Below, in pieces: positions 1-35,315 of a stretch of 64,000 nt of DNA. Each line of letters opens with the position of its first letter. The first letter of the stretch is position 1. Under the pieces are notes generated by a model. That model made no database searches and was not told the DNA's origin. It saw only the letters and a list, made by a program, of their open reading frames with translations. This stretch comes from Eledone cirrhosa (Eukaryota), in contig OZ024745.1 of NCBI GenBank assembly GCA_964016885.1, positions 11,408,001 through 11,472,000 on the forward strand, in the 5' to 3' direction. A program made the position numbers and the translations under genes.

Positions 1-210
1 AACTGAATAAATTTGTCCGTAGATTAAGGGAATTTTTAGATTTTAGTATAAAGAATATCTCCTCTGCGCAGAGGTCACATGTCCCAGAGGATGAATTAAA
101 AGGAATCCCTCTTGAGACTATATTCCAAGCCGTCGAATATCTAACGTTATCTAGCTTAAGTTGCCAGAGTACGCCTGATAGTGCCGTTGAAGATTTTTTG
201 CTTGGATCTG
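1..210 (-). repeat. Inverted copy of the PLE1 3' coding region (1543-1752)
   Basis: Base-by-base reverse complement over 210 nt; may extend beyond the window start. Confidence 0.95.
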
Positions 211-1808
211 GGCAAATTAAGCAAACACATTCTTGACAGGGTGATACAGCAAATTAAGAACTTGGATTGTTTATCTAACCTGAGCTTGTGGGAGGGAACT
301 GGAGAGGTTGTTGAGTGGTTTAAGAAAATTAAATATAACAATAATAATAAGTTTATTCAACTTGATATTGCTAACTATTATTCTTCTATTACCTCTAATC
401 TACTAAATAAGGCACTAAATTACGCATTCAAACATACAGACCTAACTAGCAATGAAATGCATATTATATTATCGGCTAGGAAAACATTGATAGAATTTAA
501 TGACCAACTATGGACCAGAGCAGATAGAGATAGCAATTTTGACATTACTATGGGATCATCCGACTCAGCTCAGGTAACTGACCTTGTGGGCTTATTTTTA
601 ATCAATTCGCTACATAGGAAAATACCTGGTATTACCGGAGGTTTATATAGAGATGACATGCTTTTACTTATTGATAATAATAACTCTGAACTAAATAGAA
701 AATGTAAACAAATTACACAATTTTTTAATTACTTTAATCTTAAAATAGAAATTGAGAACAACCATAGAATAGTCAATTTCCTAGATATAACATTAAATCT
801 CAACACATGTCTTCACTATCCTTTTCACAAGTTGAATGAAAACTTAAACTATGTCAGCTTTAACTCTAACCACCCCAGATCTGTCAAAAACACTATAGTA
901 AACTCTGTTCAAAAACGTATCTCTAGAATCTCGTCTAACAGAAATATTTTCGACGAAAAAGCCCAGTACTACAATGAAGCGTTAGCTAGAGCAGGATATA
1001 CTGATAAGATTATGTACATAGATAATGATAGACAAACTAAACAAAATAACAACTATTTTAATTACGGCAACAACCTTAACAACTATAATAGAAAGCATTA
1101 CAATAATTCCAAGGGCCAAAAAAGTAATAGAACTAGGAACATAATTTGGTTTGCCCCCCCCCCTTTCTCACTAAACATTAAAACCCACATCGCTAAACTA
1201 TTTTTAAAGCTCTTGATAATCGCTTCCCTAGAACACATAGGTATCACTCAATTTTCAATAGACATACTATAAAATTAACCTACTCATCCACCAAAAGTTT
1301 AGCACAAAATATTAATAGAATAAATAATAGGAACTTAAAACCTAGTGATAATAGCATAAATAATATACAAGTTAACAAATGTAACTGTAGAGATAGATCT
1401 AAATGTCCGTTAAATAACAACTGCTTAGTTAAAAATATAGTATAAAATTGTAATGTTAAAACTGATTCTAATTCTTTTAACTACGTCGGTTCCACATCGA
1501 CGGAATTTAAACTTCGCTATAATAACCACAAGAATTCTTTCACAGATCCAAGCAAAAAATCTTCAACGGCACTATCAGGCGTACTCTGGCAACTTAAGCT
1601 AGATAACGTTAGATATTCGACGGCTTGGAATATAGTCTCAAGAGGGATTCCTTTTAATTCATCCTCTGGGACATGTGACCTCTGCGCAGAGGAGATATTC
1701 TTTATACTAAAATCTAAAAATTCCCTTAATCTACGGACAAATTTATTCAGTTGCTGCAAACATAGATTAAACTCAACTTTTAAATATAAATTTAAATTTA
1801 AAATGTAG
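211..1808 (+). pseudogene. PLE reverse transcriptase + GIY-YIG endonuclease, disrupted
   Basis: Frameshift near 1200. The second frame reads KALDNRFPRTHRYHSIFNRHTIKLTYS...CNCRDRSKCPLNNNCLVKNIV*NC...YVGSTSTEFKLRYNNH...CDLCAEE...CCKH and ends at TAG 1808. There is an in-frame TAA at about 1443 where the GIY tyrosine is expected. Confidence 0.85.
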
Positions 1809-2259
1809 TATATTTAGTTTGATTTATAATTATTTGGGAAACTAGCCGATAAATCTTTCGATTTCTTCTTTTTATTCTTCTTTGTATTTTTATTTAAACA
1901 TTCTTCATGGAAAATTAAACTACCCTAAAAGTTGATGCTCCAAATATTTCGAATAAACGTTACACTAGATAAACTTCTATATTAAATATAAGAACACATG
2001 TAGACCAAATGGGCATCCTAAACTTTTTGAAATGATTTTTGCTAGATGCGATTTGATAAATAATTTTTAGCTTTATCTGTTTTCGACTCTGATGCTTATA
2101 ATGAACTTGGCAATATATTGTCAATTAATTTTGAAGGGTTGATCTTTGTGGTTTATTTTTATTTTTTTTATTTTTTATTATTGTAGTATTTTCTAATATT
2201 TTTATTTTTAATATGTAATATTTTTAATATGTAATATTTTTTTCGTAATATTTTATTAT

Positions 2260-2292
<33 letters not shown>

Positions 2293-3137
2293 GTTGTTTT
2301 TTGGTTTTTGTTTCTGATATATTTTTTATTGATATATTGAAATCTGCTCTCTATTTCTGCTTGATAGATAATCTTGTAGAGTAAAGACAAGAATAGTAGT
2401 AATATAGACTCTATATATATATGTGTATATATATACACATATGTGTATACTTAAATTTTTATAGCACAATGAGATTGTTTTCCGTGTGAACTTAGGGTTT
2501 GCAGAGTTGATCATGTGAATTCACATCGATGTTTGTAGTTATCATATAAACATATGAATTTTTTAAAACTAAACATAAGATCATTACTTTTCACACATTA
2601 TGGATACGTGTCTCATTCAGGAATACTGATATTTTCAATATAGTGCCTGGTTTTTATACATATTAATACTTCTACATTAAAACATAGGGTGTTTATGCCT
2701 CGCCTATGTCTGGTTACTTTTCATTTTTCTCTATATATAACAGCTGGTTTCTCTCCTAACCACATATATCTCCCTTACATTAATACTAGAGCTAAATAAA
2801 TAAATAAATAAATAAATGTATCATTGATACGTTTACTCAACGGATGTCCAACTACATATTTTTCTATATATATATCTATCTCTATCTATTTCCTCTCTCT
2901 ATATATATCTCTCTCTGTTTCTTTACATGAAGTTCTTCTCTTTATCTATCTTTCCATCTCTCTATTTTGTTCCATGCATTTCTTCTTTTTCTTCTTTTTC
3001 TTCGTTTTCTGTCTTTCTTTTTTTCTCTCTTTCTTTCTTTCTGTTTACAATTTTTTCACTGCCAATTCAACTTTTCAAATACAAGTCGATGTTGTACGGT
3101 ATGTCAAATCTATTTATCTATAAAACTGTTTATATTG

Positions 3138-3203
3138 TATTTTGTCTGAGGAAGGCATAGCATATTGTTAATATGATATCCCTGAAATATATATAATGAA
3201 ATA
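3138..3203 (+). ncRNA. Type I hammerhead ribozyme, minimal, with palindromic stem III
   Basis: tattttgt-CTGAGGA-agg...cct-GAAA-tatata-TA-atgaaata; stems I and II pair, with two G.U pairs in stem I. Confidence 0.7.
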
Positions 3204-9086: not shown

Positions 9087-12000
9087 CCTTGAATCTCAGT
9101 CATTGATGTTGGTTAACTGGAAAGTCCGTTGGATTGAATATCAAGCCACTACCTGCAGCCTCAGATATTCAGGACGTATCGGAGGGTTCTTGCTGTTCCA
9201 AGCAAGCATGCCTTTTGAAGCGTTCCAAAAAGCGTGAAGGGGCCGATTTTCTTTAACCATCCCTGGAAACTTTTGGAGATAGTCCCCAGTGCGCCTATGA
9301 CAATCGGGATCACTTTGACTTCATGGCAGTTCCAAATCCTTTTCACCTCCCACTTTAGGTCCTGGTATCGGTTAATTTTCTCCCTCTCCTTCTCTTGCAC
9401 TCTCGTGTCGAACGGGCAGGCCACATCCACAATCAGACATGATCTTTTTTCTTTGTCCACAACCACCAGGTCAGGTCTATTGTGTTCCAGTTTTTTGTCC
9501 GTCTGTATCCTAAAATCCCACAGCACCTTCACCTGATTGTTCTCCATCACCGCCTCTGGCCTATGCTCATACCATTTCTCAGAATGTGGTAAATTGTTTA
9601 CTTTGCACAGGTGCCAGTGGATCACCCTGCCCATCACATCGTGTCTCCAGCCCTTATAGTGGGTCTGGGCTAGGTGTTTACACTCGGACACAATGTGAGC
9701 CACAGTCTCCTCTCTCTCTCTCCACAGATCCTGCACAGTGGGCTAGCCTCCTCCTTGTAGATATGGTGCTTCAACCACTTCGTTTTGAGGGCCTGCTCCT
9801 GCGCAGCCATTAGCATTCCTTCTGTAGCCTTTTTGAGGTCTCCTCTTCTCAACCAGTTCCATGTCTGTGGATCTCTAAATTCAGTTTTCTCAAAGAAGGT
9901 ACTATGAAGGGATTTTCCCTTAAGGCTGCTCTTCCTCCATGATGTTATTTCCTCCTTGGACATCCCCTGGCCTACTGTCCCCTCCTTCAGTACAGTTCTG
10001 AGCATTGGCTCCTTACTATAGGTCACGTATTTGTATAGGTTGTTTTTCTCCATCTGAACACAGTCCTCTATGCTGATAAGACCTCTTCCACCCTCAGATC
10101 TCCTTAGGTAGAGTCTATCGACATCACTCCTCTTGTGGAACATGTTGTAGATAGTCAATAGCTTCCTAGTCTTCCTATCCATTTCTTTTTGTTCAGCAAC
10201 ATTCCATCTCAGAATTCCCGCACTGTACCTAATAATAGACACAGCTCGGGAATTTACTGCGCTTATGGCATTTCTGCTGTTCATATGTGACTTCAATACG
10301 CTCCTTACTCTCCGAATGTATTCAGTTCTTAACAATTCCTTCATTTTTTTGTTCTTTATGCCATCAGCCTCCAGAACGCCCAAATACTTGTATCCTTCCT
10401 CAGAGTCAATTTCCTTTATCATCTCACCTGTTGGTATCTGGATCCCGTTACTTCTGCTCAACCTACTCCTCTTCATCACAATGACTCCACATTTACCAAT
10501 ACCAAACTGCATACATATATCACTGCTGAAAATACGGACAGTGTCAACAAGCACATCCAACTCCTTCTCACTTTTCCCGAAGAGCTTAAGATCGTCCATG
10601 AAGAGGAGGTGATTGATGGTAAGCTCTCCCCTTCCCAACTTGTATCCTGCTCTCACTTTTCGCAGCATAATGGTCAAGGGCATCAGGGCAAGGACAAACA
10701 ACAGAGGGGACAGGCTATCTCCCTGGAAGATACCTCTCTTGATCTTCACGCTTCCCAAGGATACTCCAGTTGATGTCAACTCTGTCTCCCAGGACCCCAT
10801 ACTCCTGCCTAGCAACTGTCTGATGTTATCTGCCACCCTGAAGATCTCCAGGCTTTTGGTGATCCAGGAATGAGGCACCATGTCAAATGCCTTTCTGTAG
10901 TCTATCCATCCCATGGCAAGATCAGTGTGTCTTCTCCTGCAATTCCCCATTACCATCTTATCAATAAGTAACTGGTCCTTTGTACCACGTGACTTCTTTC
11001 GGCATCCTTTCTGTTCGTCCGGTAACAAGTTGTTTGTGTGGAGGTGATGGTAGATTTCCTCAGACACAATGCTCGTCAACAGTTTCCACATTACGGACAG
11101 ACATGTGATAGGTCTATAGTTGGTAACATCATTACCCTTGATTCGGTCTTTCATTATCAGAACTGTGGTACCTTTTGTCAACCACTCTGGCACCTCACCC
11201 GACACCAAGCAGTCATTGAACATGGCCGTCAGCTTCGGGTGGAGGGATGTTAAATGTTTAATCCAATACCCCTGCACACCATCTGGGCCTGGTGATTTCC
11301 AGTTGGTTAGTTTTTTGGCCTGCCCCTTAAGAGTTTCAACTGTGATACTCAAATCAGTTTGTTGTTGTGCCTGCTCACCGATCTCCCTCTGTACTGTCTC
11401 AATCCACCCTGCCTGGGCATTGTGTCTAACATCCTGCTCCCATATTCCTCTCCAGAATGTTTTAGTTTGCTCCGCCCCAGGGATCAAGTCGTTGCCTCTT
11501 TCTTTCCCCTCAAGCTGTCCAAACAGCATCTTCTGGTTGTTGTCGAACATGCGGTTCTGTTTATACTGACTGACTCTGTTCTCGTATCGCCTGATTTTTG
11601 CACTCTTTGCTACAATGCGTTGCTTCAGTTCCTCTATGATAATATTTAGCTTTTTCCTCCTAGTTTTGTATTTTATTTCCAGTCTATTTTTAGTGCCTAT
11701 GTTTTTTAGTGTCCCATTCAGTAGTGACTCAAGCTTTCCTATGTCATTTCTCATTTCCCCGATTTGCCCACTCAGTCGCTTCTTCCACCACGGCTCTGCT
11801 CTTTCTTGTCTGTTGTTTCCTCTCGCTTTTATACCAAGTAGTTTCCTCACCGTATTTGCTGTTGCTTTGAGGATATTGTTGCACTGGTGAAGGCTCCTCG
11901 CCTCAAGATATGGGATGACTTTGTTTACCTTAGCTGTTGTTTCTTTTAACTTTTTCCTGTCTACAAATCTTAGGTTCATAGGTCTCCCACTATCATTGTT

Positions 12001-13612
12001 CAATTCATCTACCACTAAATTTAGGATGTCAACCGAATCTTGTCCTAGCCCGTCAGCATTCATCTCCTCAGTGGCCGTATCTCTGTTCCAGGTATTATTT
12101 ATCTCAGTATTCAGATCATTGTCTGCTTCGGGTGGTTCCTCCGTTCTCAGGACCTCTTCACCTTCATTTCCCACTGGCTCGCTTGTCTGGCATACTACAC
12201 CCGCCATCTCCAAGCCATTCTCTCTGCTCAGTTCCTCCAGTTCCAGCTCGCTTATCCATCCATTAGTTCTTATTACCCGAGCCTGCCCGGCCAATTTTTG
12301 TTCATCTAATTTAAATAAACCAATCTCGTTCCAGATGCTATGCATCCGTCTCCTGTAGCCCCTCTCCTTGGGGTTACTTTTCAGGTAACATTGCATAACA
12401 GTTCTATTCAATTCTTTCGTCCAGTTGGTTCTGGCCCCTTTCCTTCTTCTCCTTCCTCCAACATCAGCAGTATTTGGTAGACAGTCAGGTTCCTGCTGCT
12501 GAGCCAGGGGGCACCTGTTGGGTGAGAGTCTGTCACATGACGTTCTAGTCTCCATTTCACCGTTATTCGAACTGTTTATGTTCGATATTTAAACACTCTT
12601 ATCGAGGATTGGCGAATGTATGGTTACATATCCATCTGTGGATCCGCCATTCCACTTGGCCCTTGTGTGGCATTATCACCACGCTGTATACGAACACACA
12701 TAAACAAACAAACACACAGGCAGAAAGGGCCCCAAAAATGAATAAGCATAAGTTTCATTGTAATGTAGTGTTCGAATGTCTGACTTAGTTTTTGTTTTTT
12801 AAGTTTTAGTTTTTCCCCCCTCTTCTCTGTCCGTCCGCCTGCTTCTCTCTTCATTCTTATTTTCTTTACGTTTTTTGGGGTTTTTTTTTTTGTTTGTTTT
12901 TGTTTTTGTTTTTCTCTGTTTGTTTTTCTCGTTTTTTGATGTTGTTGCTGTGCTGCTTTGGTTTTGTTGTTTGTTTTTTCTTTTTTCTTTTGAGTCTATC
13001 TATATATTTTGATGCCTTCCTCTTTTTTAGCAGTAGGGATTCTATAATGTGGTGGCAGCAGCCAGCTGGAAGAAGTGGGAGACTGGCGGCGGTAGCGATA
13101 CTGAGACAGTGGTGGTGGTGATGTCGATACCGAGGCAGTGGTGGCGGTGATGTGACCGTATTACTGTAGTGATGGTGCTGTAGCGGTGGTAGCAGTGAAG
13201 GAGTGAAGGGGTGGTGGCGGCGGTGATGGGATAATGGTTGTAATGATGGCCGTAGTGAGCGGTGGTGGTTTAGTGTACACAGGTGATGGGGTGGGTGGTG
13301 TATCTAGTTTCTGGTGTTGGTGAGTTTGGCTGTTCTATATAGTGTAGACAGAGGAGGAGGAGGGGGGGGGGTTCTTCTTCCATTTATAGCCATTTTCTTT
13401 TTTGGATATACAGTGTACAATACAAAGTTGAATATTTGAATATTTGAGCCTTATAACAATATATTTTGGGTCCGAATTTTTTGGGGCTCAAGCCGGGTGC
13501 TTTACGTAGCATTTGTACTAAGAGTTGTTATTTCACAAATGATTTAAATATGTTAAAAATTCAAAACTTACGGGAGCGATTTCATGACCTCCGTCACCTC
13601 GTGCGTCTTCTT
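9087..13612 (-). mobile_element. Dong/R4-clade RLE non-LTR retrotransposon, full-length copy A
   Basis: About 4.5 kb: roughly 1 kb 5' UTR, single ORF, roughly 75 bp 3' UTR, (TAA)n at both ends; near-identical to copy B. Confidence 0.92.
9161..12555 (-). pseudogene. RT + restriction-like endonuclease ORF of copy A with one frameshift
   Basis: ORFs 9670-12555 and 9161-9736 join across (TC)6 at 9711-9722, where copy B has (TC)5. Confidence 0.9.
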
Positions 13613-13637
13613 CCCTATTATTATTATTATTATTATT

Positions 13638-16600
13638 CCTTGAATCTCAGTCATTGATGTTGGTTAACTGGAAAGTCCGTTGGATTGAATATCAAGCCAC
13701 TACCTGCAGCCTCAGATATTCAGGACGTATCGGAGGGTTCTTGCCGTTCCAAGCAAGCATGCCTTTTGAAGCGTTCCAAAAAGCGTGAAGGGGCCGATTT
13801 TCTTTAACCATCCCTGGAAACCTTTGGAGATAGTCCCCAGTGCGCCTATGACAATCGGGATCACTTTGACTTCATGGCAGTTCCAAATCCTTTTCACCTC
13901 CCACTTTAGGTCCTGGTATCGGTTAATTTTCTCCCTCTCCTTCTCTTGCACTCTCGTGTCGAACGGGCAGGCCACATCCACAATCAGGCACGATCTTTTT
14001 TCTTTGTCCACAACCACCAGGTCAGGTCTATTGTGTTCCAGTTTTTTGTCCGTCTGTATCCTAAAATCCCACAGCACCTTCACCTGACTGTTCTCCATCA
14101 CCGCCTCTGGCCTATGCTCATACCATTTCTCAGAATGTGGTAGATTGTTTACTTTGCACAGGTGCCAGTGGATCACCCTGCCCATCACATCGTGTCTCCA
14201 GCCCTTATAGTGGGTCTGGGCTAGGTGTTTACACTCGGACACAATGTGAGCCACAGTCTCCTCTCTCTCTCCACAGATCCTGCACAGTGGGCTAGCCTCC
14301 TCCTTGTAGATATGGTGCTTCAACCACTTCGTTTTGAGGGCCTGCTCCTGCGCAGCCATTAGCATTCCTTCTGTAGCCTTTTTGAGGTCTCCTCTTCTCA
14401 ACCAGTTCCATGTCTGTGGATCTCTAAATTCAGTTTTCTCAAAGAAGGTACTATGAAGGGATTTTCCCTTAAGGCTGCTCTTCCTCCTTGATGTTATTTC
14501 CTCCTTGGGTATCCCCTGGCCTACTCTCCCCTCCTTCAGTACAGCTCTGAGCATTGGCTCCTTACTATAGGTCACGTATTTGTATAGGTTGTTTTTCTCC
14601 ATCTGAACACAGTCCTCTATGCTGATAAGACCTCTTCCACCCTCAGATCTCCTTAGGTAGAGTCTATCGACATCACTCCTCTTGTGGAACATGTTGTAGA
14701 TAGTCAATAGCTTCCTAGTCTTCCTATCCATTTCTTTTTGTTCAGCAACATTCCATCTCAGAATTCCCGCACTGTACCTAATAATAGACACAGCTCGGGA
14801 ATTTACTGCGCTTATGGCATTTCTGCTGTTCAGATGTGACTTCAATACGCTCCTTACTCTCCGAATGTATTCAGTTCTTAACAATTCCTTCATTTTTTTG
14901 TTCTTTATGCCATCAGCCTCCAGAACGCCCAAATACTTGTATCCTTCCTCAGAGTCAATTTCCTTTATCATCTCACCTGTTGGTATCTGGATCCCGTTAC
15001 TTCTGCTCAACCTACCCCTCCTCATCACAATGACTCCACATTTACCAATACCAAACTGCATACATATATCACTGCTGAAAATACGGACAGTGTCAACAAG
15101 CACATCCAACTCCTTCTCACTTTTCCCGAAGAGCTTAAGATCGTCCATGAAGAGGAGGTGATTGATGGTAAGCTCTCCCCTTCCCAACTTGTATCCTGCT
15201 CTCACTTTTCGCAGCATAATGGTCAAGGGCATCAGGGCAAGGACAAACAACAGAGGGGACAGGCTATCTCCCTGGAAGATACCTCTCTTGATCTTCACGC
15301 TTCCCAAGGATACTCCAGTTGATGTCAACTCTGTCTCCCAGGACCCCATACTCCTGCCCAGCAACTCTCTGATGTTATCTGCCACCCTGAAGATCTCCAG
15401 GCTTTTGGTGATCCAGGAATGAGGCACCATGTCAAATGCCTTTCTGTAGTCTATCCATCCCATGGCAAGATCAGTGTGTCTCCTCCTGCAATTCCCCATT
15501 ACCATCTTATCAATAAGCAACTGGTCCTTTGTACCACGTGACTTCTTTCGGCATCCTTTCTGTTCGTCCGGCAACAAGTTGTTTGTGTGGAGGTGATGGT
15601 AGATTTCCTCAGACACAATGCTCGTCAACAGTTTCCACATTACGGGCAGACATGTGATAGGTCTATAGTTGGTAACATCATTACCCTTGATTCGGTCTTT
15701 CATTATCAGAACTGTGGTACCTTTTGTCAACCACTCTGGCACCTCACCCGACACCAAGCAGTCATTGAACATGGCCGTCAGCTTCGGGTGGAGGGATGTT
15801 AAATGTTTAATCCAATACCCCTGCACACCATCTGGGCCTGGTGATTTCCAGTTGGTTAGTTTTTTGGCTTGCCCCTTAAGAGTTTCAACTGTGATACTCA
15901 AATCAGTCTGTTGCTGTGCCTGCTCACCGATCTCCCTCTGTACTGTCTCAATCCACCCTGCCTGGGCATTGTGTCTAACATCCTGCTCCCATATTCCTCT
16001 CCAGAATGTTTTAGCTTGTTCCGCCCCAGGGATCAAGTCGGTGCCTCTTTCTTTCCCCTCAAGCTGTCCAAACAGCATCTTCTGGTTGTTGTCGAACATG
16101 CGGTTCTGTTTATACTGACTGACTCTGTTCTCGTATCGCCTGATTTTGGCACTCTTTGCTACAATGCGTTGCTTCAATTCCTCTATGATAATATTTAGCT
16201 TTTTACTCCTAGTTTTGTATTTTATTTCCAGTCTATTTTTAGTGCCTATGTTTTTTAGTGTCCCATTCAGTAGTGACTCAAGCTTTCCTATGTCATTTCT
16301 CATTTCCCCGATTTGCCCACTCAGTCGCTTCTTCCACCACGGCTCTGCTCTTTCTTGTCTGTTGTTTCCTCTCGCTTTTATACCAAGTAGTTTCCTCACC
16401 GTATTTGCTGTTGCTTTGAGGATATTGTTGCACTGGTGAAGTCTCCTCGCCTCAAGGTATGGGATGACTTTGTTTACCTTAGCTGTTGTTTCTTTTAACT
16501 TTTTCCTGTGTACAAATCTTAGGTTCATAGGTCTCCCACTATCATTGTTCAACTCATCTACCACTAAATTTAGGATGTCAACCGAATCTTGTCCTAGCCC

Positions 16601-18138
16601 GTCAGCATTCATCTCCTCAGTGGCCGTATCTCTGTTCCAGGTATTATTTATCTCAGTATTCAGATCATTGTCTGCTTCGGGTGGTTCCTCCGCTCTCAGG
16701 ACCTCCTCACCTTCATTTCCCGCCGGCTCGCTTGTCTGGCATACTACACCCGCCATCTCCAAGCCATTCTCTCTGCTCAGTTCCTCCAGTTCCAGCTCGC
16801 TTATCCACCCATTAGTTCTTATTACCCGAGCCTGCCCGGCCAATTTTTGTTCATCTAATTTAAATAAACCAATCTCGTTCCAGATGTTATGCATCCGTCT
16901 CCTGTAGCCCCTCTCCTTGGGGTTACTTTTCAGGTAGCATTGCATAACAGTTCTATTCAATTCTTTCGTCCAGTTGGTTCTGGCCCCTTTCCTTCTTCTT
17001 CTTCCTCCAACATCAGCAGTATTTCGTTGACAGTCAGGTTCCTGCTGCTGAGCCAGGGGGCACCTGTTGGGTGAGAGTCTGTCACATGACGTTCTAGTCT
17101 CCATTTCACCGTTATTCGAACTGTTTATGTTCGATATTTAAACACTCTTATCGAGGATTGGCGAATGTATGTTTACATAGCCATCTGTGGATCCGCCATC
17201 CCACTTGGCCCTTGTGTGGCATTATCACCACGCTGTATACGGACACACATAAACAAACAAACACACGGGCAGAAAGGGCCCCAAAAATGAATAAGCATAA
17301 GTTTCATTGTAATGTAGTATTCGAATGTCTGACTTAGTTTTTGTTTTTTAAGTTTTACTTTTTCCCCCCTCTTCTCTGTCCGTCCGCCTACCTCTCTCTT
17401 CATTCTTATTTTCTTTACGTTTTGGGGGTTTCTTTTTTTGTTTTTGTTTTTCTCTGTTTTTCTCGTTTTTTACTGTTGTTGCTGTGCTGCTTTTGTTGTT
17501 TATTTTTTCTTTTTTCTTTTGAGTCTATCTATATATTTTGATGCCTTCCTCTTTTTTAGCAGTAGGGATTCTATAATGTGGTGGCAGCAGCCAGCTAAAA
17601 GAAGAAGTGGGAGACCGGCGGCGGTAGCGATACTGAGACAGTGGTGGTGGTGATGTCGATACCGAGGCAGTGGTGGCGGTGATGTGACCGTATTACTGTA
17701 GCGATGGTGCTGTAGCGGTGGCAGCAGTGAAGGAGTGAAGGGGTGGTGGCGGCGGTGATGGGATAATGGTTGTAATGATGGCCGTAGTGATCGGTGGTGG
17801 TTTAGTGTACACAGGTGATAGGGTGGGTGGTGTATCTAGTTTCTGGTGTTGGTGAGTTTGGCTGTTCTATATAGTGTATACAGAGGAGGAGGGGGGGGGT
17901 TCTTCTTCCATTTATAGCCATTTTCTTTTTTGGATATACAGTGTACAATACAAAGTTGAATATTTGAATATTTGAGCCTTATAACAATATATTTTGGGTC
18001 CGAATTTTTTGGGGCTCAAGCCGGGTGCTTTACGTAGCATTTGTACTAAGAGTTGTTATTTCACAAATGGTTTAAATATGTTAAAAATTCAAAACTTACG
18101 GGAGCGATTTCATGACCTCCGTCACCTCGTGCGTCTTC

Positions 18139-21057: not shown

Positions 21058-21118
21058 TTTTATTATATATATTTCAAGGGCAACCAAGGCAAATTTGGTG
21101 CGCTTTCATCAGATAAAA
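21058..21118 (-). ncRNA. Type I hammerhead ribozyme, canonical core
   Basis: Minus strand: ttttat-CTGATGA-aagcgcacca..tggttgccctt-GAAA-tatata-TA-ataaaa. Its 3' half is repeated inverted at about 21130-21156. Confidence 0.85.

Positions 21119-21700: not shown

Positions 21701-21786
<86 letters not shown>
21175..21786. repeat. Compound (CA)/(CAGA) microsatellite followed by (TA)n
   Basis: Seen directly; the Cys/Val-rich ORFs here are artefacts. Confidence 0.95.
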
Positions 21787-21789
<3 letters not shown>

Positions 21790-22116
21790 GTGTGTTGGAC
21801 TGTTATTTCTATTCAATACACGCTTACCACGTTAGTCTAGCGGAGCACGAGGTGATAAATTCATCTTTCTGTGTGAACGTTGGCAAATAGTGTTTGTGGC
21901 ATTTAATCAGATTCTCTCGCTGATGAAGCCCAGAATTATCTGTTACAAACACACTCAGGGCGAAACAGATTAGGGATAATCTGTCCGAGAGATATAATGG
22001 TTATTGAGGCGGTTTGTATATTTTATCATTCTGTCTGCTTCTTGGTTAAATATTTCAAACAAATGTGGTTTTTCAACCCTTGTAATTTTAGACACACGGT
22101 TTACTGTGTTTCTTAC
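21787..22116 (+). mobile_element. About 330-bp ORF-less HHR element inserted in (TA)n (solo pseudo-LTR or retrozyme-like)
   Basis: (TA)n on both sides with a central HHR. Confidence 0.7.
21913..21992 (+). ncRNA. Type I hammerhead ribozyme, canonical core, full stems
   Basis: tctctcg-CTGATGA-a-gccc..gggc-GAAA-cagatta-ggga-taatctg-TC-cgagaga: 7-bp stem I, 7-bp stem III, GUC site at 21983-21985. Confidence 0.93.
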
Positions 22117-22120
22117 TATA

Positions 22121-22244
<124 letters not shown>

Positions 22245-22260
22245 TTATACATATATATAT

Positions 22261-22935
22261 ATATGTGAAAAAATGGGGAGAAGAATAAGCTGGGTGAATA
22301 TATGAGCGCGTAGAAAAAAGATCTTTCGAGATGAATCCAAATGTAAGAAAGAAGGAAATTGTTTTCGTCGCGAACGGGGTGAAGTGAGAAGGGGAGAAAC
22401 AGTGAATGAGTGAGTGGAAGTGTGAGGAAGAGGTCAGTAGAGAGAAAGTGTTAACTGACATGACAGAGGGGGCCAAAGAAAGTAAGAGAAACAGAGAGAA
22501 CGAGGGAGCAGTAAGAGAGAGAGAGAGAAAAACAGAATCGCAGTTTAGGTAAATATATGTGAAAAAATAGGGAGAAGAATACTGCAGGTTGCACATGGAT
22601 AACATGTTATAAAATGAGTCCCTCATCAGTGATTTGCCAACGATCATAGATATTTCATTGCATTAAAAATCATATACCTCACGTTGGTGCAATAATAACT
22701 AAATTAAGTTATTAGGACAATTAAAACGCGTAAAGCGAGTGAGACAAGTAACAACAAAGAGGAAAGCTAACCGTAGATAGGAAGGGCACAAGCTACATAG
22801 TTATTCTGTCAGCATAAGCTCGGTGAATATATGAGCGAGTAGAAAAAAAGACCTTTCGAGATGAATCCAAATGTAAGAAAGAAGGAAATTGTTTTCGTCG
22901 CGAACGGGGTGAAGTGAGAAGGGGAGAAACAGTGA
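22261..22935. repeat. Partial tandem duplication (about 120 bp at 22285 and 22814; 27 bp at 22261 and 22555) between (TA)n tracts
   Basis: ataagct.ggtgaatatatgagcg.gtagaaaaaaga...ggggagaaacagtga occurs twice. Confidence 0.85.
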
Positions 22936-24935: not shown

Positions 24936-25207
24936 GGTAATTCCGAAGAAAAAGCAAAGGAAAAACGAGTGCTCTATGTATAGAACAGAGCTATTTAAAT
25001 AGAAAGTGAACAACTACTCCATTACCAAAGGTTTCTGGATCGAAAAACTTTTGGTAATGGAGTAGTTATATATTGTGTTGTTCACTTTGTAATTAAATAT
25101 ATATATATATTGCTCCCACATCATTCATTCTCATCTCGGGAACAATTTTGAATAGCGCCAGTTCGTAATTTGAACTTGGGAATTTTATATTCTCTGAGTG
25201 AAAAGAC

Positions 25208-25292
25208 CCTTCTGACGAGAGTTTATCTTTTCAATGGAAGGCCGCAAAGACTGTCCATTTATTTTTGAGACTCGAAACCGATTCGGTAAAGG
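25208..25292 (+). ncRNA. Type I hammerhead ribozyme, canonical core
   Basis: cctt-CTGACGA-gagt...actc-GAAA-ccg-att-cgg-TA-aagg, inside a roughly 250-bp (TA)n-flanked segment (25111-25362). Confidence 0.85.
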
Positions 25293-25360
25293 TAACCATA
25301 GTGAGTACAGTGAATCTTTTAAAATTTATTTTGAAGCTTTTTCTTATTTGCTAAACCTTG

Positions 25361-25403
<43 letters not shown>

Positions 25404-25796: not shown

Positions 25797-25893
<97 letters not shown>

Positions 25894-26050
25894 AATATAC
25901 ACGGGTGTGTATGATTGTGTATAGAAGATTATATTAATAAGAGGAATTCAAACTTTGTCTGATTTACTCGTTTTATTTACAATCCTTTAACATTTATAAT
26001 GGTATTATAATGAAATAGTATGATAGAATATTAAATGTTAAGTGTTAATT

Positions 26051-26087
26051 GAACAAGTACTTTCATGTTTTCGCAATCTTCAGGTTC
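26051..26087 (-). ncRNA. Minimal type I HHR in the 3' pLTR of PLE2
   Basis: gaac-CTGAAGA-ttgcgaaaacat-GAAA-gtac-TT-gttc; one mismatch in stem II. Confidence 0.7.
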
Positions 26088-26457
26088 ATAATGTGTGGTG
26101 ACAGTCAAGTTTGCAGTTTTCAAATGTAATGAGATGGGTAAATTTTGTACCTATATACAGTGAAAAGTGGTTCCAGAATGCTAAATCTTGCAAACTGTAT
26201 TTCGACCAATCGGTGTATAGTTTCACTGAATTACTAAAGCTGATTGGTTTAGGCGTCACGGTTGGTTGAGCATGTCTAACGACCACTAATTGATCCTATC
26301 CAAAGCATCAATTGTTTTGCTATTTTTAGAAATGATGAAAATAGCATTTTCTAGTAATCATCACCATCAACATCACTTTTATTATTATTATTATTATTGT
26401 TGTTGTTGTTAGTGGTCGTAGTCATAGTCATAGTAGAAGTAATACCCCTAAGCATTA

Positions 26458-29400
26458 TTATTGTTCATTTAACTTGGGTTTGAATTTATCAATAACATTC
26501 TTTTCTTTGATTTTTCTCTTGATTTCACTTGGACTGTGTAATTTGTAGAATGGGAATATTATAAATATTCCCTGACCACATGTTGCTAGATGGTTACTTA
26601 GGGGTATCTGACGGACATTTGGGTATCTGATTTGCTGACGGTGTGCCCGTGCACGTTCCGATAGTGCATTTCCAGTTTGACCGACATATAGTTCTTCACA
26701 ATTCGGGCATTTAATGCAGTAAATTAGATTTCTGCTTTTGCAGTTCATGCATTTGGGAATATTTTTCCAGTTTTTGTTTTCATATATTGACCGGCGTGTA
26801 TGGACTGACATGTGCCGCATCGACTATCATTGCATTTAGATACAGTGAATGATTGGTCTTTGTTGTTAAGGTCAAACTTTGCTTTTGTTAGTAATTGCTT
26901 CAAAAATTTCGGCTGTCTTTTACTAAGAGTCAAAGATCGATCTGTGATTAAGCCTTTTAATTCATTACTTTGAGCAATGATCGGTAGGTTTGTTTTGGCA
27001 GTGTTGAAGATATTCTGGTGACATGGGTTGTGTGTCATAAATGGTATGACCAGTTCTTGGTTTCTTCTTCCTTGGGTTGTCCTAAGTTGTTGTATAGGTA
27101 TTTTTATAGCCCGCTGTATGCCATTTTCTATAAGTATAGATGGGTATTTTTGTTTGAGCAAAAATTCTCTTAGTTCTGTTAGGCGTTTGTACCTGGTATT
27201 CGTATCTTCTACAATGGTACAAATTCTTCTGGCTAGGCAGTATGGGATGTTGCGTTTTGTATGAGGTGGATGGCACGACTTAAAATTCAGATATTGATGG
27301 GTGTTTGTGTGTTTATAATATATATCCGTGGTAATGGTGGTGTCGTTTTTGATTATCATTATATCTAGGAATGGTAATTTGGTCCTACTCATCTGTTTTG
27401 TGAATTGGAGAGATGGGTGTAGGTTATTCAGGAGGATATTGAACTCATCCAGAGTATCTAGAGATTCTGTCCAGATGATGAAACAGTCGTCAAGGTATCT
27501 CTTCCAAGATTTTTCAATGTACTTTCTAAAGTCAGTACTTTATTTTTCCTCTATTTCTTGGTAGAGTTGTTGTTCTAAGTATCCCATTACAGAGTTCGCG
27601 TAAACGGGAGCAAACTTCGTTCCCATCGCTGTGCCTCTAATTTGGATGTAATTATTTCCATTGAAGAAGAAAGTATTGTTTTCCAGAATAAGTTTAACTG
27701 CGTCTAATATAAATGGCGCTGTGAATCTGATGGGAATCACTTCTCTATGTTTTTCCACCCAGTATTTAACCGCCTTTATTCCTAAGTCATGTGTAATGTT
27801 GGTGTGAAGGCTTACCACATCAAAACTAAGTAGAAGTGAATTCGTTTCCGTGGTTTTGGGAAGATGGGACAAAAAGTCGATATCATCCCGGATGAAACTG
27901 GGTATGTGAATACATAGTCGTTTCAAAATAATGTCAACAAAATTGCTTAGACGGTGGGTGGGGCATGTTGGACCAGCTATAATAGGTCTAAGTTTTAAGT
28001 CTTTTGGGTGTAGTAATTTAATGTACTCACTGTTTTGTTCTCTTACTGCCAGTTGTATTTCGGTAGGCCATACAGGTTGCTGGGTTTTGGCTCAAAATTG
28101 GTGATGTAATCTCTTTCCTTATCAGTAAGTGAGTTGTGGTATTTTGAAGCCAGGTTGCTGATCTTCTTCATGATGTTGTGGTCTATATTTGACGGTATTT
28201 CATGATAGAATGTTGTGTCTTTCAGTTGTTCCTCAACCAAATCCTTGTAGTATTCAGCATCCATTATAACAACTGCACCCCTTTATCTGCTTGTTTAATT
28301 ATTATTGTTTTATCATTATGTATACGTTTAAGTGCAGACATTTCTGATTTGTTAATGTTTGGCCTAACATTAGTATTACGTCTAAGAGGAAATTTAGACA
28401 GGATGTCAATGTATTGGTCGAGATAGATATTTCTTCCTTTTGGCTGATTGAAATTTGATTTATTCTTTACTAGTGATTCATCACTCTCATTACTTTTATC
28501 AGTGAAGAATTCTACAAGACGTAATTTTCGACAGAATTCTTGGGTATCCTCCTTCAGTTCTTGGTGGTTGACTGTTGGAGTCGGTGTGAATTTCAGTCCT
28601 TTTGACAGAATTTGCATTTCATCATTGTCAAGATCTCTTTTGGATAAATTAATTATTTTAGGATCTACGTGTACAGTTGTTTTGGGTATGTTTCCCCCTG
28701 GAGTTTTTCTTTTTCCGGTTTTTGTTGTCCTGACGTTAAAAAATGGATTTTTCTCTGTTCAGGATTTATATTCCTGTTGGTGTTCGCTTGATGAACTTTT
28801 GGTCGTGATATTATATTTGGTTTCGTTATGTATTTTGTCCTATTTTTGGTATTATGTATATTATTTTTCCATTTTTTGTTAGCATTATTTTTAACAATCT
28901 GGGGAAATGACCTAGGTTTGCTTTCAGGTTTAGATCGTTTTTTCGCCCAGTTTCTTGTGGGTAATCTCTGTTGAGATCTTGAGAGTGATCTGGTTATTCT
29001 ACGTTTTGTTTCCACATTCCTTGTGGGTAGTCTCTGTTGAGATCTTGAGAATGATCTCCTGGTTTTACTACTTCTCATGGTCTGGTCAAAGGAATATCGT
29101 GTTTGTGCTTTTTGTTCATGTTGTGTGCGATAGGGTGTTTTTGTAGAAAAAGCGAAGAGTTATTACCGTAGTTCTTCTTTGATTCAAGGTAAGGTGAGTG
29201 TTTGTGTTGGCACGTGTTCTGGCGTATGTTGTGTTGGTGAGATTGTCCACTTTTAATGCTTTTTCTCAGGGTTCCAGAGTCTTTACCGTAATTTGCAGCA
29301 TATTCGTCGAGAAATAATTGTTTCTGCTGCCATACCTTTCTTGATTTGTTTTCTTCTTTTGAGATATCTCTGATCCATAGTTCTCGTAGTTTTTCAGCTA

Positions 29401-30012
29401 TAATACCAGTCGTTAGTTTTGAAATTTCAACTTCAATTTGGTCATCAATAGCTTCATATTTGGCTTTGTAGCTGGATTGTTACATTGAGAAATGGAGATG
29501 TCGGTCCTGAATTTTGTCAATGTAAGTTCCCATCGGAGTTATTTTTCTTCTTCTGGTTCTCCTGCAATTTCTGTAATTAGGTATTTACGATGGAGTATGG
29601 ATGCCGTTAGAGAGAGCCATTTCGAATGTGTTTCGACATATTTTTCGCATTTGTATGCTTTCCAGAAGTTTTGTTTTCTTATGTTAAGAAATCTTTTCCA
29701 TGTCTTCCACATTTCTTAACTTATTCGATGTGTTTTGTTTTCCAAATTTCTTTCGTTTAGTTCTGACATCCAAGGGGGTTGTGGTAGGCTTTCTCTTGTA
29801 TCTTTGATAACTGTTGGTAAAATTTCAGCTAAATTCTTAATTTCAGAGTTTATATGTTCAGTTATAAGTTTTCCGTCTGTAGATTGTTTTTCTATTTCCT
29901 TTAAAATAGAGGATTGTGTGTCAATCACCGTGATAAGTGTTGATAATTTCGATGATATCTCCTTTAGAATTCTTTCTGATTCTGTTGATTTCATTTGTTG
30001 CTTTCCAAACAT
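26458..30012 (-). pseudogene. PLE ORF (N-terminal extension, RT, Cys linker, GIY-YIG) with multiple frameshifts
   Basis: LSKGLKFTPTP, IIIKQADKG, LYGLPK, SFDVVSL, GTAMGT, RYLDD (about 27490), FLDI, CNDSRCGTC linker, LIYCIKC..LYVGQT. Confidence 0.9.
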
Positions 30013-33431: not shown

Positions 33432-35315
33432 CTAATGGATACGATTTAAACTACCAGAACTTTTAGGTCTATAATAGAAGAAAGGATTAGAAATGGCATG
33501 GGGGCAGGAAGAAAATATCTCAGACTTTCTATTAAGCAAAACTTCCCTAGAGAAAATTATAGAGTGGGTCTCTAAGATACAGAGATTACAGAATTTAGTG
33601 TGTGTTGATAGGTTATTAGAGCGTGCTACTATACGCCAATTAAGGCTATATGGCATGCCTGCCCCTTTAAGATCCCAGATATGGTGTTCTAAAGAAGTAG
33701 AGTTCTTAAACTTAACATGCTTAAAATTAGAGATATGAGAATTAAACCTAGTTTTAAAAGTATTAGATGTGGAGCCTATATATGTGCTATTAGAAGAATC
33801 AGTCTTAACTTCACAAGCATAAACAATGTTCCTAGAGAGGCAGTGACCATTTAAAGGGCAGTTAATACTTACTCTACAGTTGCACTTCCTGGTGCTATTT
33901 ACCGGCTGAATAAGTGATTATAAGATAAGGTTATTATAAGATAAGGTCTGCTCAGGTGGTAAGGCATTAATGGATCTATCAAGACTAGTAGTACGCAAAG
34001 AGGAGTAGCTGTCCCTAATTTTCTTATTGTTAGTGCTAGCTAAATGAGAACTAATATTAGGGGTGGTCGAGAATGATAGTTTAATTACATTTTTATTAAA
34101 AATACCATGGTATTTATTAGTAGGAGGGAAATTTTTCTCTAAGATAGAAAAGAAAGACCTAGGGATGTTAGTTAATACTTCATGATCATAAGGCGGGTTA
34201 AAATAAGTATTGAGTCTCCTCCTATTTCTATCCTTACGAACTCTACCGTTATCCAGTATCCCACTAATAGGATCAGGGTTACTACGAGGACTAGTTGAAA
34301 CAACATTATTAGAAGCAGCCAAAACCCTATTGAGTCTCCTTCTGTTTCTACCTTTAATATATCTACTGTTATCTGGAAGCATATCAATAGGATTAGGGCT
34401 ACTACCAGGATCAGTTGAAACAACACTATTAGAATTAGTAAAAACATTACCACTGGGTGAGCGATCAGAGTGCCTAACTTGTTCCCTAGAACTAATCCCG
34501 AAAAGTGTATCATTAGACTCACTATTACGATTACGGTAGCTTAACCTATGGATGGGTTCGGATACACCTATGGGATTTCTACGATTCTTATGCTTTCTAT
34601 TCCCATTCATGGCCATATTATGGGAAATTACGTTATTATTATTATGGGTAAACGGAGACTTTCTAAGGTTGTTCTCATTATAACGTATTTTACCAGAGTA
34701 ACCAGAGTTAGCTAGGGCATTATTATAGTACTCTACATGTGAATTAAATATTCCTATATCCTTAGAGAGTGTGGAAATTCTATTAGATACACCGTTAATT
34801 ATAGAGCTAATCATAGATTCGGGGTGGTTAGAATTGGGATTAACATAAGAGAGTATCTCATTTGGCTTATGGAAGGGTTTATAACTATTAGTGACCAAGT
34901 CCAAAGTCACATCTAAAAAGTTGACCGCTCTATCATTTCTATCAATCGTGATCGAAAGGTTAAAATTTTAAAAAAATGTATAAAGTTTCTTCCTATTATG
35001 CTCAATGTTGTTGGTGCTAGAGTTTATCACAAACAATGCATCGTCACGATAAAGTCCGCCTTTAAGGTGTGGAAAGGTAACATACAGTTCATTTAGGAGG
35101 AACAGCCCAACAAGATCAATTACCTGGCCGAATCACTCGAACCCATTGTAACGTCGAAATTGTTGGGTGTGTTTTTACGCGTCCAAAGTGTATCCTGGAA
35201 TTTGATGATAGTCCTACGGGCTGCTAGTATAACATCAATCCGCGGTCGTGTAAGGCTAGACACTCGCATGGCCATAATTAAGGCTTTATTAAGGAGGATA
35301 GGTGAAATCGACGTG
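33432..35315 (-). pseudogene. PLE RT + GIY-YIG, disrupted
   Basis: MGSSDSA, GGLYRDD, FLDVTLDL, YFNPPY, CNCRVSINCPLNGHC, IVYAC..YIGST, CNLCILE..CPH. Confidence 0.88.

What the first reader, a model, noticed from the sequence alone, without database searches (positions are those of the whole stretch)
21787..22116. Retrozyme-sized element with a complete HHR and a predicted 12-bp pseudoknot
Seen: a 330-bp ORF-less insert in (TA)n with an intact core, 7-bp stems I and III and a GUC site. Loop II (tgttacaaacac, 21941-21952) is complementary, with two G.U pairs, to upstream gtgtttgtggca (21890-21901). Inference: this long-range pairing could replace the usual loop I/II tertiary contact, giving a ribozyme active as a monomer. 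The size matches metazoan non-LTR retrozymes that produce circular RNAs.
Basis: partly seen in the sequence, partly recalled or inferred. Interest (0 to 1): 0.75.

Follow-up and report, generated by a model that had tools for sequence, protein, structure and literature searches.

The report
Retrozyme hammerhead with extra-long pseudoknot
This stretch is a shortened copy of a 451-base non-coding repeat with hundreds of copies in an animal genome; it carries an intact hammerhead (self-cutting RNA) motif whose big loop can pair over about 17 bases with the sequence just upstream, a pairing kept in a sister family with a different sequence, and the repeat is likely spread by Penelope-type jumping genes.

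Summary
The hammerhead and the 12-bp complementarity are real, but the element is not 330 bp. It is a 5'-truncated copy (337 of 451 nt) of a head-to-tail repeat; 372 exact hits of a loop-II 29-mer lie in this 3-Gb genome. Copies show Penelope-like (PLE) footprints: 76 of 83 arms end at one of two AU-rich internal sites, 5' ends are scattered, inversions are common. No coding PLE carried the unit as its terminal repeat in the loci examined, so it fits a non-LTR retrozyme. The pairing is longer than reported: 17 bp across 19 nt of loop II in the family (16 here). A sister family keeps a 17-22-bp helix in the same place with a different sequence, and each flank pairs well only with its own family's loop. 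Whether the helix activates the ribozyme or blocks it is untested. No cleavage, RNA or circle was shown; 0 of 100 copies start at the cut site. This single-hammerhead copy cannot release a monomer. The scan earlier noted other pseudoknotted retrozyme families in this genome, with different unit sizes.

The parts
21787..22123 (+). 5'-truncated copy (unit positions 1-337) of a 451-nt head-to-tail retrozyme unit
   Evidence: unit defined from natural tandem L003:1501-1951
21890..21908 (+). 5' strand of the long helix (12 bp, 2x2 loop, 5 bp)
   Evidence: 12 of 19 columns invariant across 9 subfamily majorities versus 1 of 30 just upstream
21934..21952 (+). 3' strand of the long helix, inside loop II; 21934 is a near-private G-to-A change
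   Evidence: 19 of 19 columns invariant across 9 subfamily majorities
21913..21919 (+). stem I, 5' strand
   Evidence: 98% of cells paired, 4 of 7 pairs with changes on both sides
21920..21927 (+). catalytic core CUGAUGA plus one extra nucleotide before stem II
   Evidence: invariant in alignment A1
21928..21961 (+). stem II (4 bp, 21928-21931/21958-21961) closing the 26-nt loop II
21962..21985 (+). GAAA, stem III hairpin (7 bp, 4-nt loop) and GUC; predicted cut after 21985
21986..21992 (+). stem I, 3' strand
22117..22123 (+). AU-rich internal site 1, where the copy ends and merges with the target; inferred start of reverse transcription
   Evidence: 37 of 83 arms end here, 39 of 83 at site 2 about 79 nt further on
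21717..21786 (.). left (TA)n target tract
22124..22264 (.). right (TA)n target tract

Best explanation
The stretch is a 5'-truncated copy of a 451-nt non-coding tandem unit with an intact type I hammerhead motif, likely a non-LTR retrozyme that is copied into (TA)n by the reverse transcriptase and endonuclease of a Penelope-like element, and its loop II likely pairs with the upstream flank as a long pseudoknot that braces stems I and II. Shown: unit size, tandem and inverted arrangement, two fixed 3' end sites in AU-rich motifs, scattered 5' ends, near-identity of units inside one insertion, family-specific complementarity of the helix. Inferred cycle: a copy with two or more hammerheads is transcribed, cuts itself into 451-nt monomers that may be ligated to circles; the PLE protein nicks (TA)n, starts cDNA at one of two internal AU-rich sites that each lie just 5' of a small hairpin, runs through the ribozyme junction, sometimes for several units, and often primes a second arm from the other target strand (inversion). 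The window copy is such a cDNA that stopped after 337 nt. The partner is not identified; two chimeric insertions hint at a Hydra-type PLE.
For: Unit and copies: 40 of 49 listed matches cover the whole 330 bp at 96-100%; flanks continue into the same 121 nt and back into the unit; 372 exact hits, control 0; 574 hits for a looser core pattern. Architecture from the first 100 of 353 pattern places: 83 arms, 37 end at site 1, 39 at site 2, 7 elsewhere; 57 of 83 exceed one unit, longest 4.7 units; 12 opposite-strand arm pairs; median difference 0.8% between tandem units of one arm (n=20), 1.5% between opposite arms (n=12), 4.6% between insertions (n=3309). 10 of 83 arms hold two or more complete hammerheads. 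These are the PLE features described in PMC8557442 and the two internal starts in PMC11167929. Core and stems intact in 68 of 73 family contexts. Helix: 16-24 pairs in all 14 A- and X-type representatives, 0-22 of 500 shuffled flanks as good; cross-pairing energies -14.6 to -26.7 kcal/mol within the A group and -14.1 to -23.3 within the X group, against -2.8 to -11.5 between groups; 6 of 17 helix pairs change on both sides in alignment A1. In the window's family the helix uses no core or stem nucleotide and starts 2 nt beyond stem II and 4 nt beyond stem I, where pseudoknots activate other hammerheads (PMC3088659). A length estimate allows it: 53 A needed, about 76 A reachable.
Against: No cleavage, transcript or circle was shown. 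0 of 100 copies begin at the cut site (shortest run past it 8 nt; 2 of 83 arms within 6 nt of a preceding cut site, 1.3 expected), so the genome gives no sign of a cut linear template; an uncut multimer explains this as well as a circle, and in PMC11167929 cleavage was not needed for insertion. With the flank present, nested folding drops stems I and II (pair probability 0.03 or less in the window copy, 0.00 in a 451-nt circle) in favour of the helix; without the flank the hammerhead folds (0.93-0.97). Such programs cannot represent pseudoknots, but the result equally fits a blocking helix. Within the A group both strands are mostly invariant (one-sided changes only), two positions are often mismatched, and the B subfamilies carry a bulge (14 and 22 of 500 shuffles as good). 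Loop II is more invariant (19 of 19) than pairing alone needs. The both-sided changes come from A versus X, essentially one or two events, and the X rows of A1 are partly out of register. In 8 of 9 Xenopus retrozymes tested in the 2026 preprint no cleavage was seen.
Confidence: 0.68

Rival explanations
1. Same retrozyme, but the long helix is an off switch: fully zipped it prevents stems I and II from forming and protects the monomer or circle from re-cutting; cleavage needs it to open, at least in part, perhaps with help from the PLE protein.
For: Helix plus stem III is 5.5 kcal/mol more stable than the hammerhead alone (-26.4 versus -20.9); helix probability 0.95-0.99 and stems I/II 0.00 in the circular monomer; its 5' strand is transcribed first; a 5-nt connector must span most of a 19-nt helix; reverse transcription passed the cut site in 100 of 100 copies. 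Plant retrozyme and viroid circles block their hammerhead by complementary sequence (PMC7229834); the anole PLE hammerhead cut only with protein (PMC11167929).
Against: In the window's family the helix spares every core and stem nucleotide; family X has a stem II of only 2-4 bp that would need bracing; nested folding cannot show a pseudoknot; the length estimate does not forbid coexistence.
Confidence: 0.22
2. The unit is the terminal repeat (pLTR) of a coding PLE not yet found, and the copies are its truncated 3' ends.
For: Footprints are those of PLEs; PLE terminal repeats hold type I hammerheads (PMC4209133); only a sample of PLE families was read (10,597 to 56,051 first-look candidates, 150 scored per search). 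Two of 180 loci join the unit's 5' end to coding PLE sequence on the same strand (L193, L195).
Against: Units join end to start with no ORF in arms of up to 4.7 units. In L193 the junction cuts the GIY-YIG domain; in L195 it lies inside a 3' UTR that goes on differently in 19 of 19 other copies of that PLE, so both are chimeras. No homology of the unit to the 3' ends in 37 Neptune-type loci (one separate insertion) or 60 GIY-YIG loci.
Confidence: 0.07
3. The hammerhead no longer cuts; the conserved loop and helix are a protein-binding or promoter element, and the repeat spreads as an uncut multimeric RNA.
For: No copy starts at the cut site; loop II invariant beyond pairing needs; cleavage dispensable for the anole PLE in vitro.
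Against: Core invariant and stems I and III kept by both-sided changes across families about 71% identical or less; units inside one insertion are far more alike than units of different insertions, which points to repeated copying of a monomer.
Confidence: 0.1

Closest known systems
Metazoan non-LTR retrozymes (Cervera and de la Pena 2020, PMC7229834; Li, Clavereau and Pollet 2026, bioRxiv 10.64898/2026.07.22.740005)
   Same: ORF-less, low-GC unit with one type I hammerhead, as monomers to short multimers, no LTR/PBS/PPT, coexisting with PLEs; size within the 51-972 bp range of the 2026 survey.
   Different: 451 nt versus 170-400 nt in the 2020 study; 26-nt loop II pairing with the flank instead of the usual loop contacts; long stem III; dispersed 1-5-unit insertions in (TA)n with two fixed internal 3' ends and inversions, which give a direct footprint of PLE copying. 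RNA and circles not shown here.
Pseudoknotted hammerheads of types I-III, including human C10orf118 (Perreault et al. 2011, PMC3088659)
   Same: Watson-Crick pairing that links the tips of stems I and II; about 40% of hammerheads are predicted to have one; shown there to be needed for fast cleavage.
   Different: The examples in the passages read have 4-6 bp; here 16-24 predicted pairs take up most of loop II. Activity untested here.
Penelope-like elements: Hydra, Neptune, Poseidon clades (Craig et al. 2021, PMC8557442; Frangieh et al. 2024, PMC11167929)
   Same: 5' truncation, partial tandems, inverted 5' arm, optional 3' tail from two internal start sites, (TA)n targeting, hammerhead upstream of the start sites.
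   Different: No ORF; tail about 79 nt instead of 30-40; start sites are AU-rich and match the target, whereas the anole element starts in an AC-rich stem-loop not homologous to the cut DNA; PLE hammerheads in this genome are minimal ones.

Membership tests
Type I hammerhead ribozyme | Core CUGAnGA, GAAA and NUH with stems I (open), II and III | tested here: met
   68 of 73 family contexts intact
Type I hammerhead ribozyme | Match to an Rfam hammerhead model | tested here: not met
   the 26-nt loop II is the probable reason (inference)
Type I hammerhead ribozyme | Self-cleavage after the NUH triplet | not testable with these tools
   no assay; indirect genomic test gave 0 of 100 copies starting at the site
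Non-LTR retrozyme | Head-to-tail repeats with a complete hammerhead in at least two consecutive units (criterion of Li et al. 2026) | tested here: met
   10 of 83 arms for the family; not met by the window copy itself, which has one
Non-LTR retrozyme | No coding capacity, no LTR retroelement layout, low GC | tested here: met
   no ORF inside the unit other than frames running through TA tracts; unit joins end to start
Non-LTR retrozyme | Expression as monomeric linear and circular RNA | not testable with these tools
   no RNA run was listed
Non-LTR retrozyme | Dependence on a PLE for mobilisation | tested here: inconclusive
   PLE-type footprints and two chimeras with Hydra-type PLE sequence; partner not identified
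pLTR of a coding PLE | Native continuity with the 3' end of an RT/GIY-YIG ORF | tested here: not met
   sample of loci only
Pseudoknotted hammerhead (Perreault 2011) | Predicted pairing of 4 bp or more linking loop II to the stem I side | tested here: met
Pseudoknotted hammerhead (Perreault 2011) | Pairing needed for fast cleavage | not testable with these tools
   needs disruption and compensatory mutants

The most novel reading that the evidence does not exclude
A structural subclass of animal hammerheads in which nearly the whole of loop II zips up with the 5' flank into a 17-22-bp helix that works as a two-state clamp: the part next to the stems braces the active fold in the new multimeric transcript, and the fully zipped helix locks the 451-nt circle so that a Hydra-type PLE reverse transcriptase can roll through it from two hairpin-marked AU-rich start sites. 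This would answer how animal retrozyme circles avoid re-cutting and name their mobilising partner.
Probability: 0.2. Interest if true: 0.78.

Novelty: new variant of a known kind. Interest (0 to 1): 0.5.

Why it matters
Non-LTR retrozymes and pseudoknotted hammerheads are both known, so the class is not new. Two points add something. First, the helix is about three times longer than the hammerhead pseudoknots in the passages read and is kept with different sequences in two families, which gives ready-made natural compensatory pairs for a clean test of activation versus blocking; how animal retrozyme circles escape re-cutting is stated as open in PMC7229834. Second, the copies record the copying mechanism (two fixed internal starts, read-through of the ribozyme junction, inverted second arms, chimeras with coding PLEs), which supports PLE mobilisation more directly than the co-occurrence and phylogeny used so far, and suggests the cis-signal and partner to test.

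Tried and rejected
Rfam: no hammerhead hit. RNA evidence: no RNA holder listed; four runs of unrecorded kind, one study, hold the family as contigs and show further flank variants but nothing on expression. Metagenome scan: 82 pattern matches, 0 of 82 with a hammerhead 3' arm and no BLAST match to the unit, taken as chance. Excess of copies starting at the cut site, a lead from earlier notes on other families: not seen here. Neptune-type PLE of the window as source of the unit: its 3' repeat is unrelated and has its own minimal hammerhead. X-like pieces behind four GIY-YIG loci are separate insertions in the same TA tract. Third family Z (window 25212): an 8-bp flank/loop match is visible by eye and, but the duplex test gave no support (241 of 500 shuffles as good; my trimming removed part of its strand), so it is not counted. 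A U1.7/loop II contact as in PMC11875169: position 1.7 is a paired A here, not pursued. Rows dropped: 38 of 160 hammerhead contexts as chimeric or short, one chimeric group, 4 of 29 copies with indels or offsets. Literature: searches listed no paper on a cephalopod retrozyme or on a hammerhead with so long a loop II helix; the library lacks most subscription papers, Lunse et al. on PLE hammerhead variants was not held, and figure and supplement drawings of hammerhead variants could not be seen, so a published example is not excluded.

Full report
Observation. The sequence holds a complete type I hammerhead on the + strand: stem I 21913-21919/21986-21992, CUGAUGA 21920-21926, one extra A, stem II 21928-21931/21958-21961, GAAA, a 7-bp stem III and GUC at 21983-21985. 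The 12-bp match 21890-21901/21941-21952 with two G.U pairs is real; 4 of 3000 shuffles of the 40-nt flank and 21 of 3000 of the 126-nt flank gave as long a run. The insert lies between (TA)n tracts. Rfam misses it.

The unit is 451 nt, not 330. A search of the own genome (3.0 Gb) listed 49 matches from 40 of 1517 candidates, 40 of them over the full query at 96-100%. Their flanks run on into the same 121 nt and back into the start of the query, so the element is a head-to-tail unit of 451 nt, with a 467-nt subfamily. The window copy is unit positions 1-337. Exact patterns gave 372 hits (loop II 29-mer, control 0), 353 (24-mer just 3' of the cut site) and 574 (looser core pattern). Ten groups with two or more members, one of them chimeric, span 67-93% identity (122 of 160 contexts kept).

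How it was copied. I fetched all of the first 100 of 353 places of the 24-mer (two chromosomes). They form 83 arms: 37 end at an AU-rich site near unit position 340, 39 at a second AU-rich site about 79 nt further on, 7 elsewhere or unresolved; 57 exceed one unit, 7 exceed two, the longest measured is 4.7 units; 12 pairs of arms face opposite ways. Inverted arms end at the same two sites. Tandem units in one arm differ by a median 0.8% (n=20), opposite arms by 1.5% (n=12), separate insertions by 4.6% (n=3309). 5' truncation, partial tandems, inverted 5' copies, an optional tail and (TA)n bias are PLE features (PMC8557442, passages), and two internal start sites explain the tail in the anole PLE (PMC11167929, parts 1-2 of 4). 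Each site here is followed by a GCUC/GAGC-type hairpin; folding showed it for both A sites, B site 2 and X site 1, not for the copies folded for B site 1 and X site 2. Its role as a start signal is inference. 0 of 100 copies begin at the cut site: the template was a circle or an uncut multimer, and these data cannot tell which. 10 of 83 arms hold two complete hammerheads and could yield a monomer; the window copy cannot.

Retrozyme or terminal repeat. Of 180 family loci 24 have a PLE protein hit nearby, mostly behind a TA tract. The unit is not homologous to the 3' ends of the Neptune-type family of the window (37 loci) or of 60 GIY-YIG loci. Two loci join the unit's 5' end directly to coding PLE sequence on the same strand: L193 inside the GIY-YIG domain and L195 inside a 3' UTR with a 5-nt shared stretch, where 19 of 19 other copies of that PLE go on differently. 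They are chimeras, probably template switches (inference). The L193 frame has the CxCX5C linker that defines the TA-targeting Hydra clade, and L195 a decayed form of it; this is a weak hint at the partner. The layout matches non-LTR retrozymes (PMC7229834, passages and sections 14 and 17; bioRxiv 10.64898/2026.07.22.740005, parts 1-3 of 5).

The helix. It extends beyond the 12 bp: after a 2x2 loop come five more pairs (21904-21908/21934-21938), 17 in all in a family-typical copy and 16 in the window copy, which has A at 21934 where 24 of 25 compared copies have G. Across 9 subfamily majorities 12 of 19 columns of the 5' strand and 19 of 19 of the loop strand are invariant, against 1 of 30 just upstream. 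Within this group changes are one-sided, two positions are often mismatched, and the B subfamilies have a bulge. A second repeat family X (248 pattern hits; same insertion layout) has the same ends on both strands with a different middle that still pairs (17-22 bp, 0-3 of 500 shuffles as good). Cross-pairing is block-diagonal: -14.6 to -26.7 kcal/mol within the A group, -14.1 to -23.3 within X, -2.8 to -11.5 between. On alignment A1 (15 copies) 87% of cells pair against 80% in shuffles and 31-50% for slid partners, and 6 of 17 helix pairs change on both sides; the X rows are partly out of register and related rows are not independent, so this is support, not a probability.

What the helix does. 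For bracing: in the window's family it spares all core and stem bases and starts 2 nt past stem II and 4 nt past stem I; Watson-Crick pseudoknots there are common (about 40%) and needed for fast cleavage, with 4-6 bp in the examples read (PMC3088659, passages, section 10 and a supplement search); a simple length estimate allows all helices at once (53 A needed, about 76 A reachable). For blocking: in nested folding the helix displaces stems I and II (0.03 or less in the window copy, 0.00 in a 451-nt circle; 0.93-0.97 without the flank), and plant retrozyme and viroid circles block their hammerheads by complementarity, while the block in animal circles is called unknown. I put bracing at about 0.6, a switch or block at about 0.25.

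Comparison and verdict. A new variant of known kinds: a non-LTR retrozyme with a pseudoknot-type hammerhead whose helix is unusually long. Literature searches listed no description of it; passages of PMC4209133, PMC6765202, PMC10085705, PMC11875169 and PMC13282606 (no mention of ribozyme or hammerhead) added none; one relevant paper was not held and figures could not be seen. That the host is an octopus-like mollusc is my guess from recalled repeat features and comes from no call. Earlier scan notes describe other pseudoknotted retrozyme families of 530-560 nt in this genome; sequence look-ups with this unit and with family X found no look-alike. Cleavage, expression and circles remain untested. 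Interest 0.5.

Noticed in passing
window 25110-25365 (+), core at 25212: A second, unrelated hammerhead repeat (family Z; GUA site, 6-bp stem II, long loop II with an 8-bp match to the flank); 40 full-length hits at 96-100%, tandem period 486 nt in L306.
   Followed up: partly
L320-L339: Family X: hammerhead repeat with 2-4-bp stem II and a 17-22-bp loop II/flank helix that shows compensatory changes between its subfamilies (L322 versus L336); shares the two AU-rich end sites with the window family.
   Followed up: partly
L193:2516-3905 and L195:3400-4160 (minus strand): Chimeric insertions in which the retrozyme's 5' end joins coding Hydra-type PLE sequence without a TA tract; possible template switches that point to the partner.
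   Followed up: partly
L030, L320: Different retrozyme families joined directly in one insertion (A with B; X with an A-group subfamily), suggesting a shared copying machinery.
   Followed up: no
L033-L035, L041, L043, L059, L060: Subfamily B copies repeatedly carry the same SINE-like element inserted at one fixed site next to AU-rich site 1.
   Followed up: no
window 160-3200 (+) and 33432-34967 (-): PLE fragments with C-terminal GIY-YIG; the second has a CxCX5C (Hydra-type) linker. The first belongs to a young family with open frames of about 745 aa elsewhere and a 3' UTR of over 1.3 kb leading to a minimal hammerhead at 3146. Another minimal hammerhead lies at 21112 (-).
   Followed up: partly
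window 25890-29479 (-): Broken Neptune-type PLE; relatives with open frames of 775 aa exist (L152, L154-L156), with their own 3' repeat and a minimal CUGAAGA hammerhead.
   Followed up: partly
window 9161-17137 (-): Two tandem copies of a non-LTR retrotransposon with RT (PF00078) and a C-terminal restriction-like endonuclease motif (R4-like by recall); the second has a 1141-aa open frame.
   Followed up: no
window 38801-64000: A 28-bp satellite of about 900 copies, 93% matches, with extreme GC skew.
   Followed up: no
L139, L303, L337: Further hammerhead-like cores with long loop II from other repeat families in the flanks.
   Followed up: no
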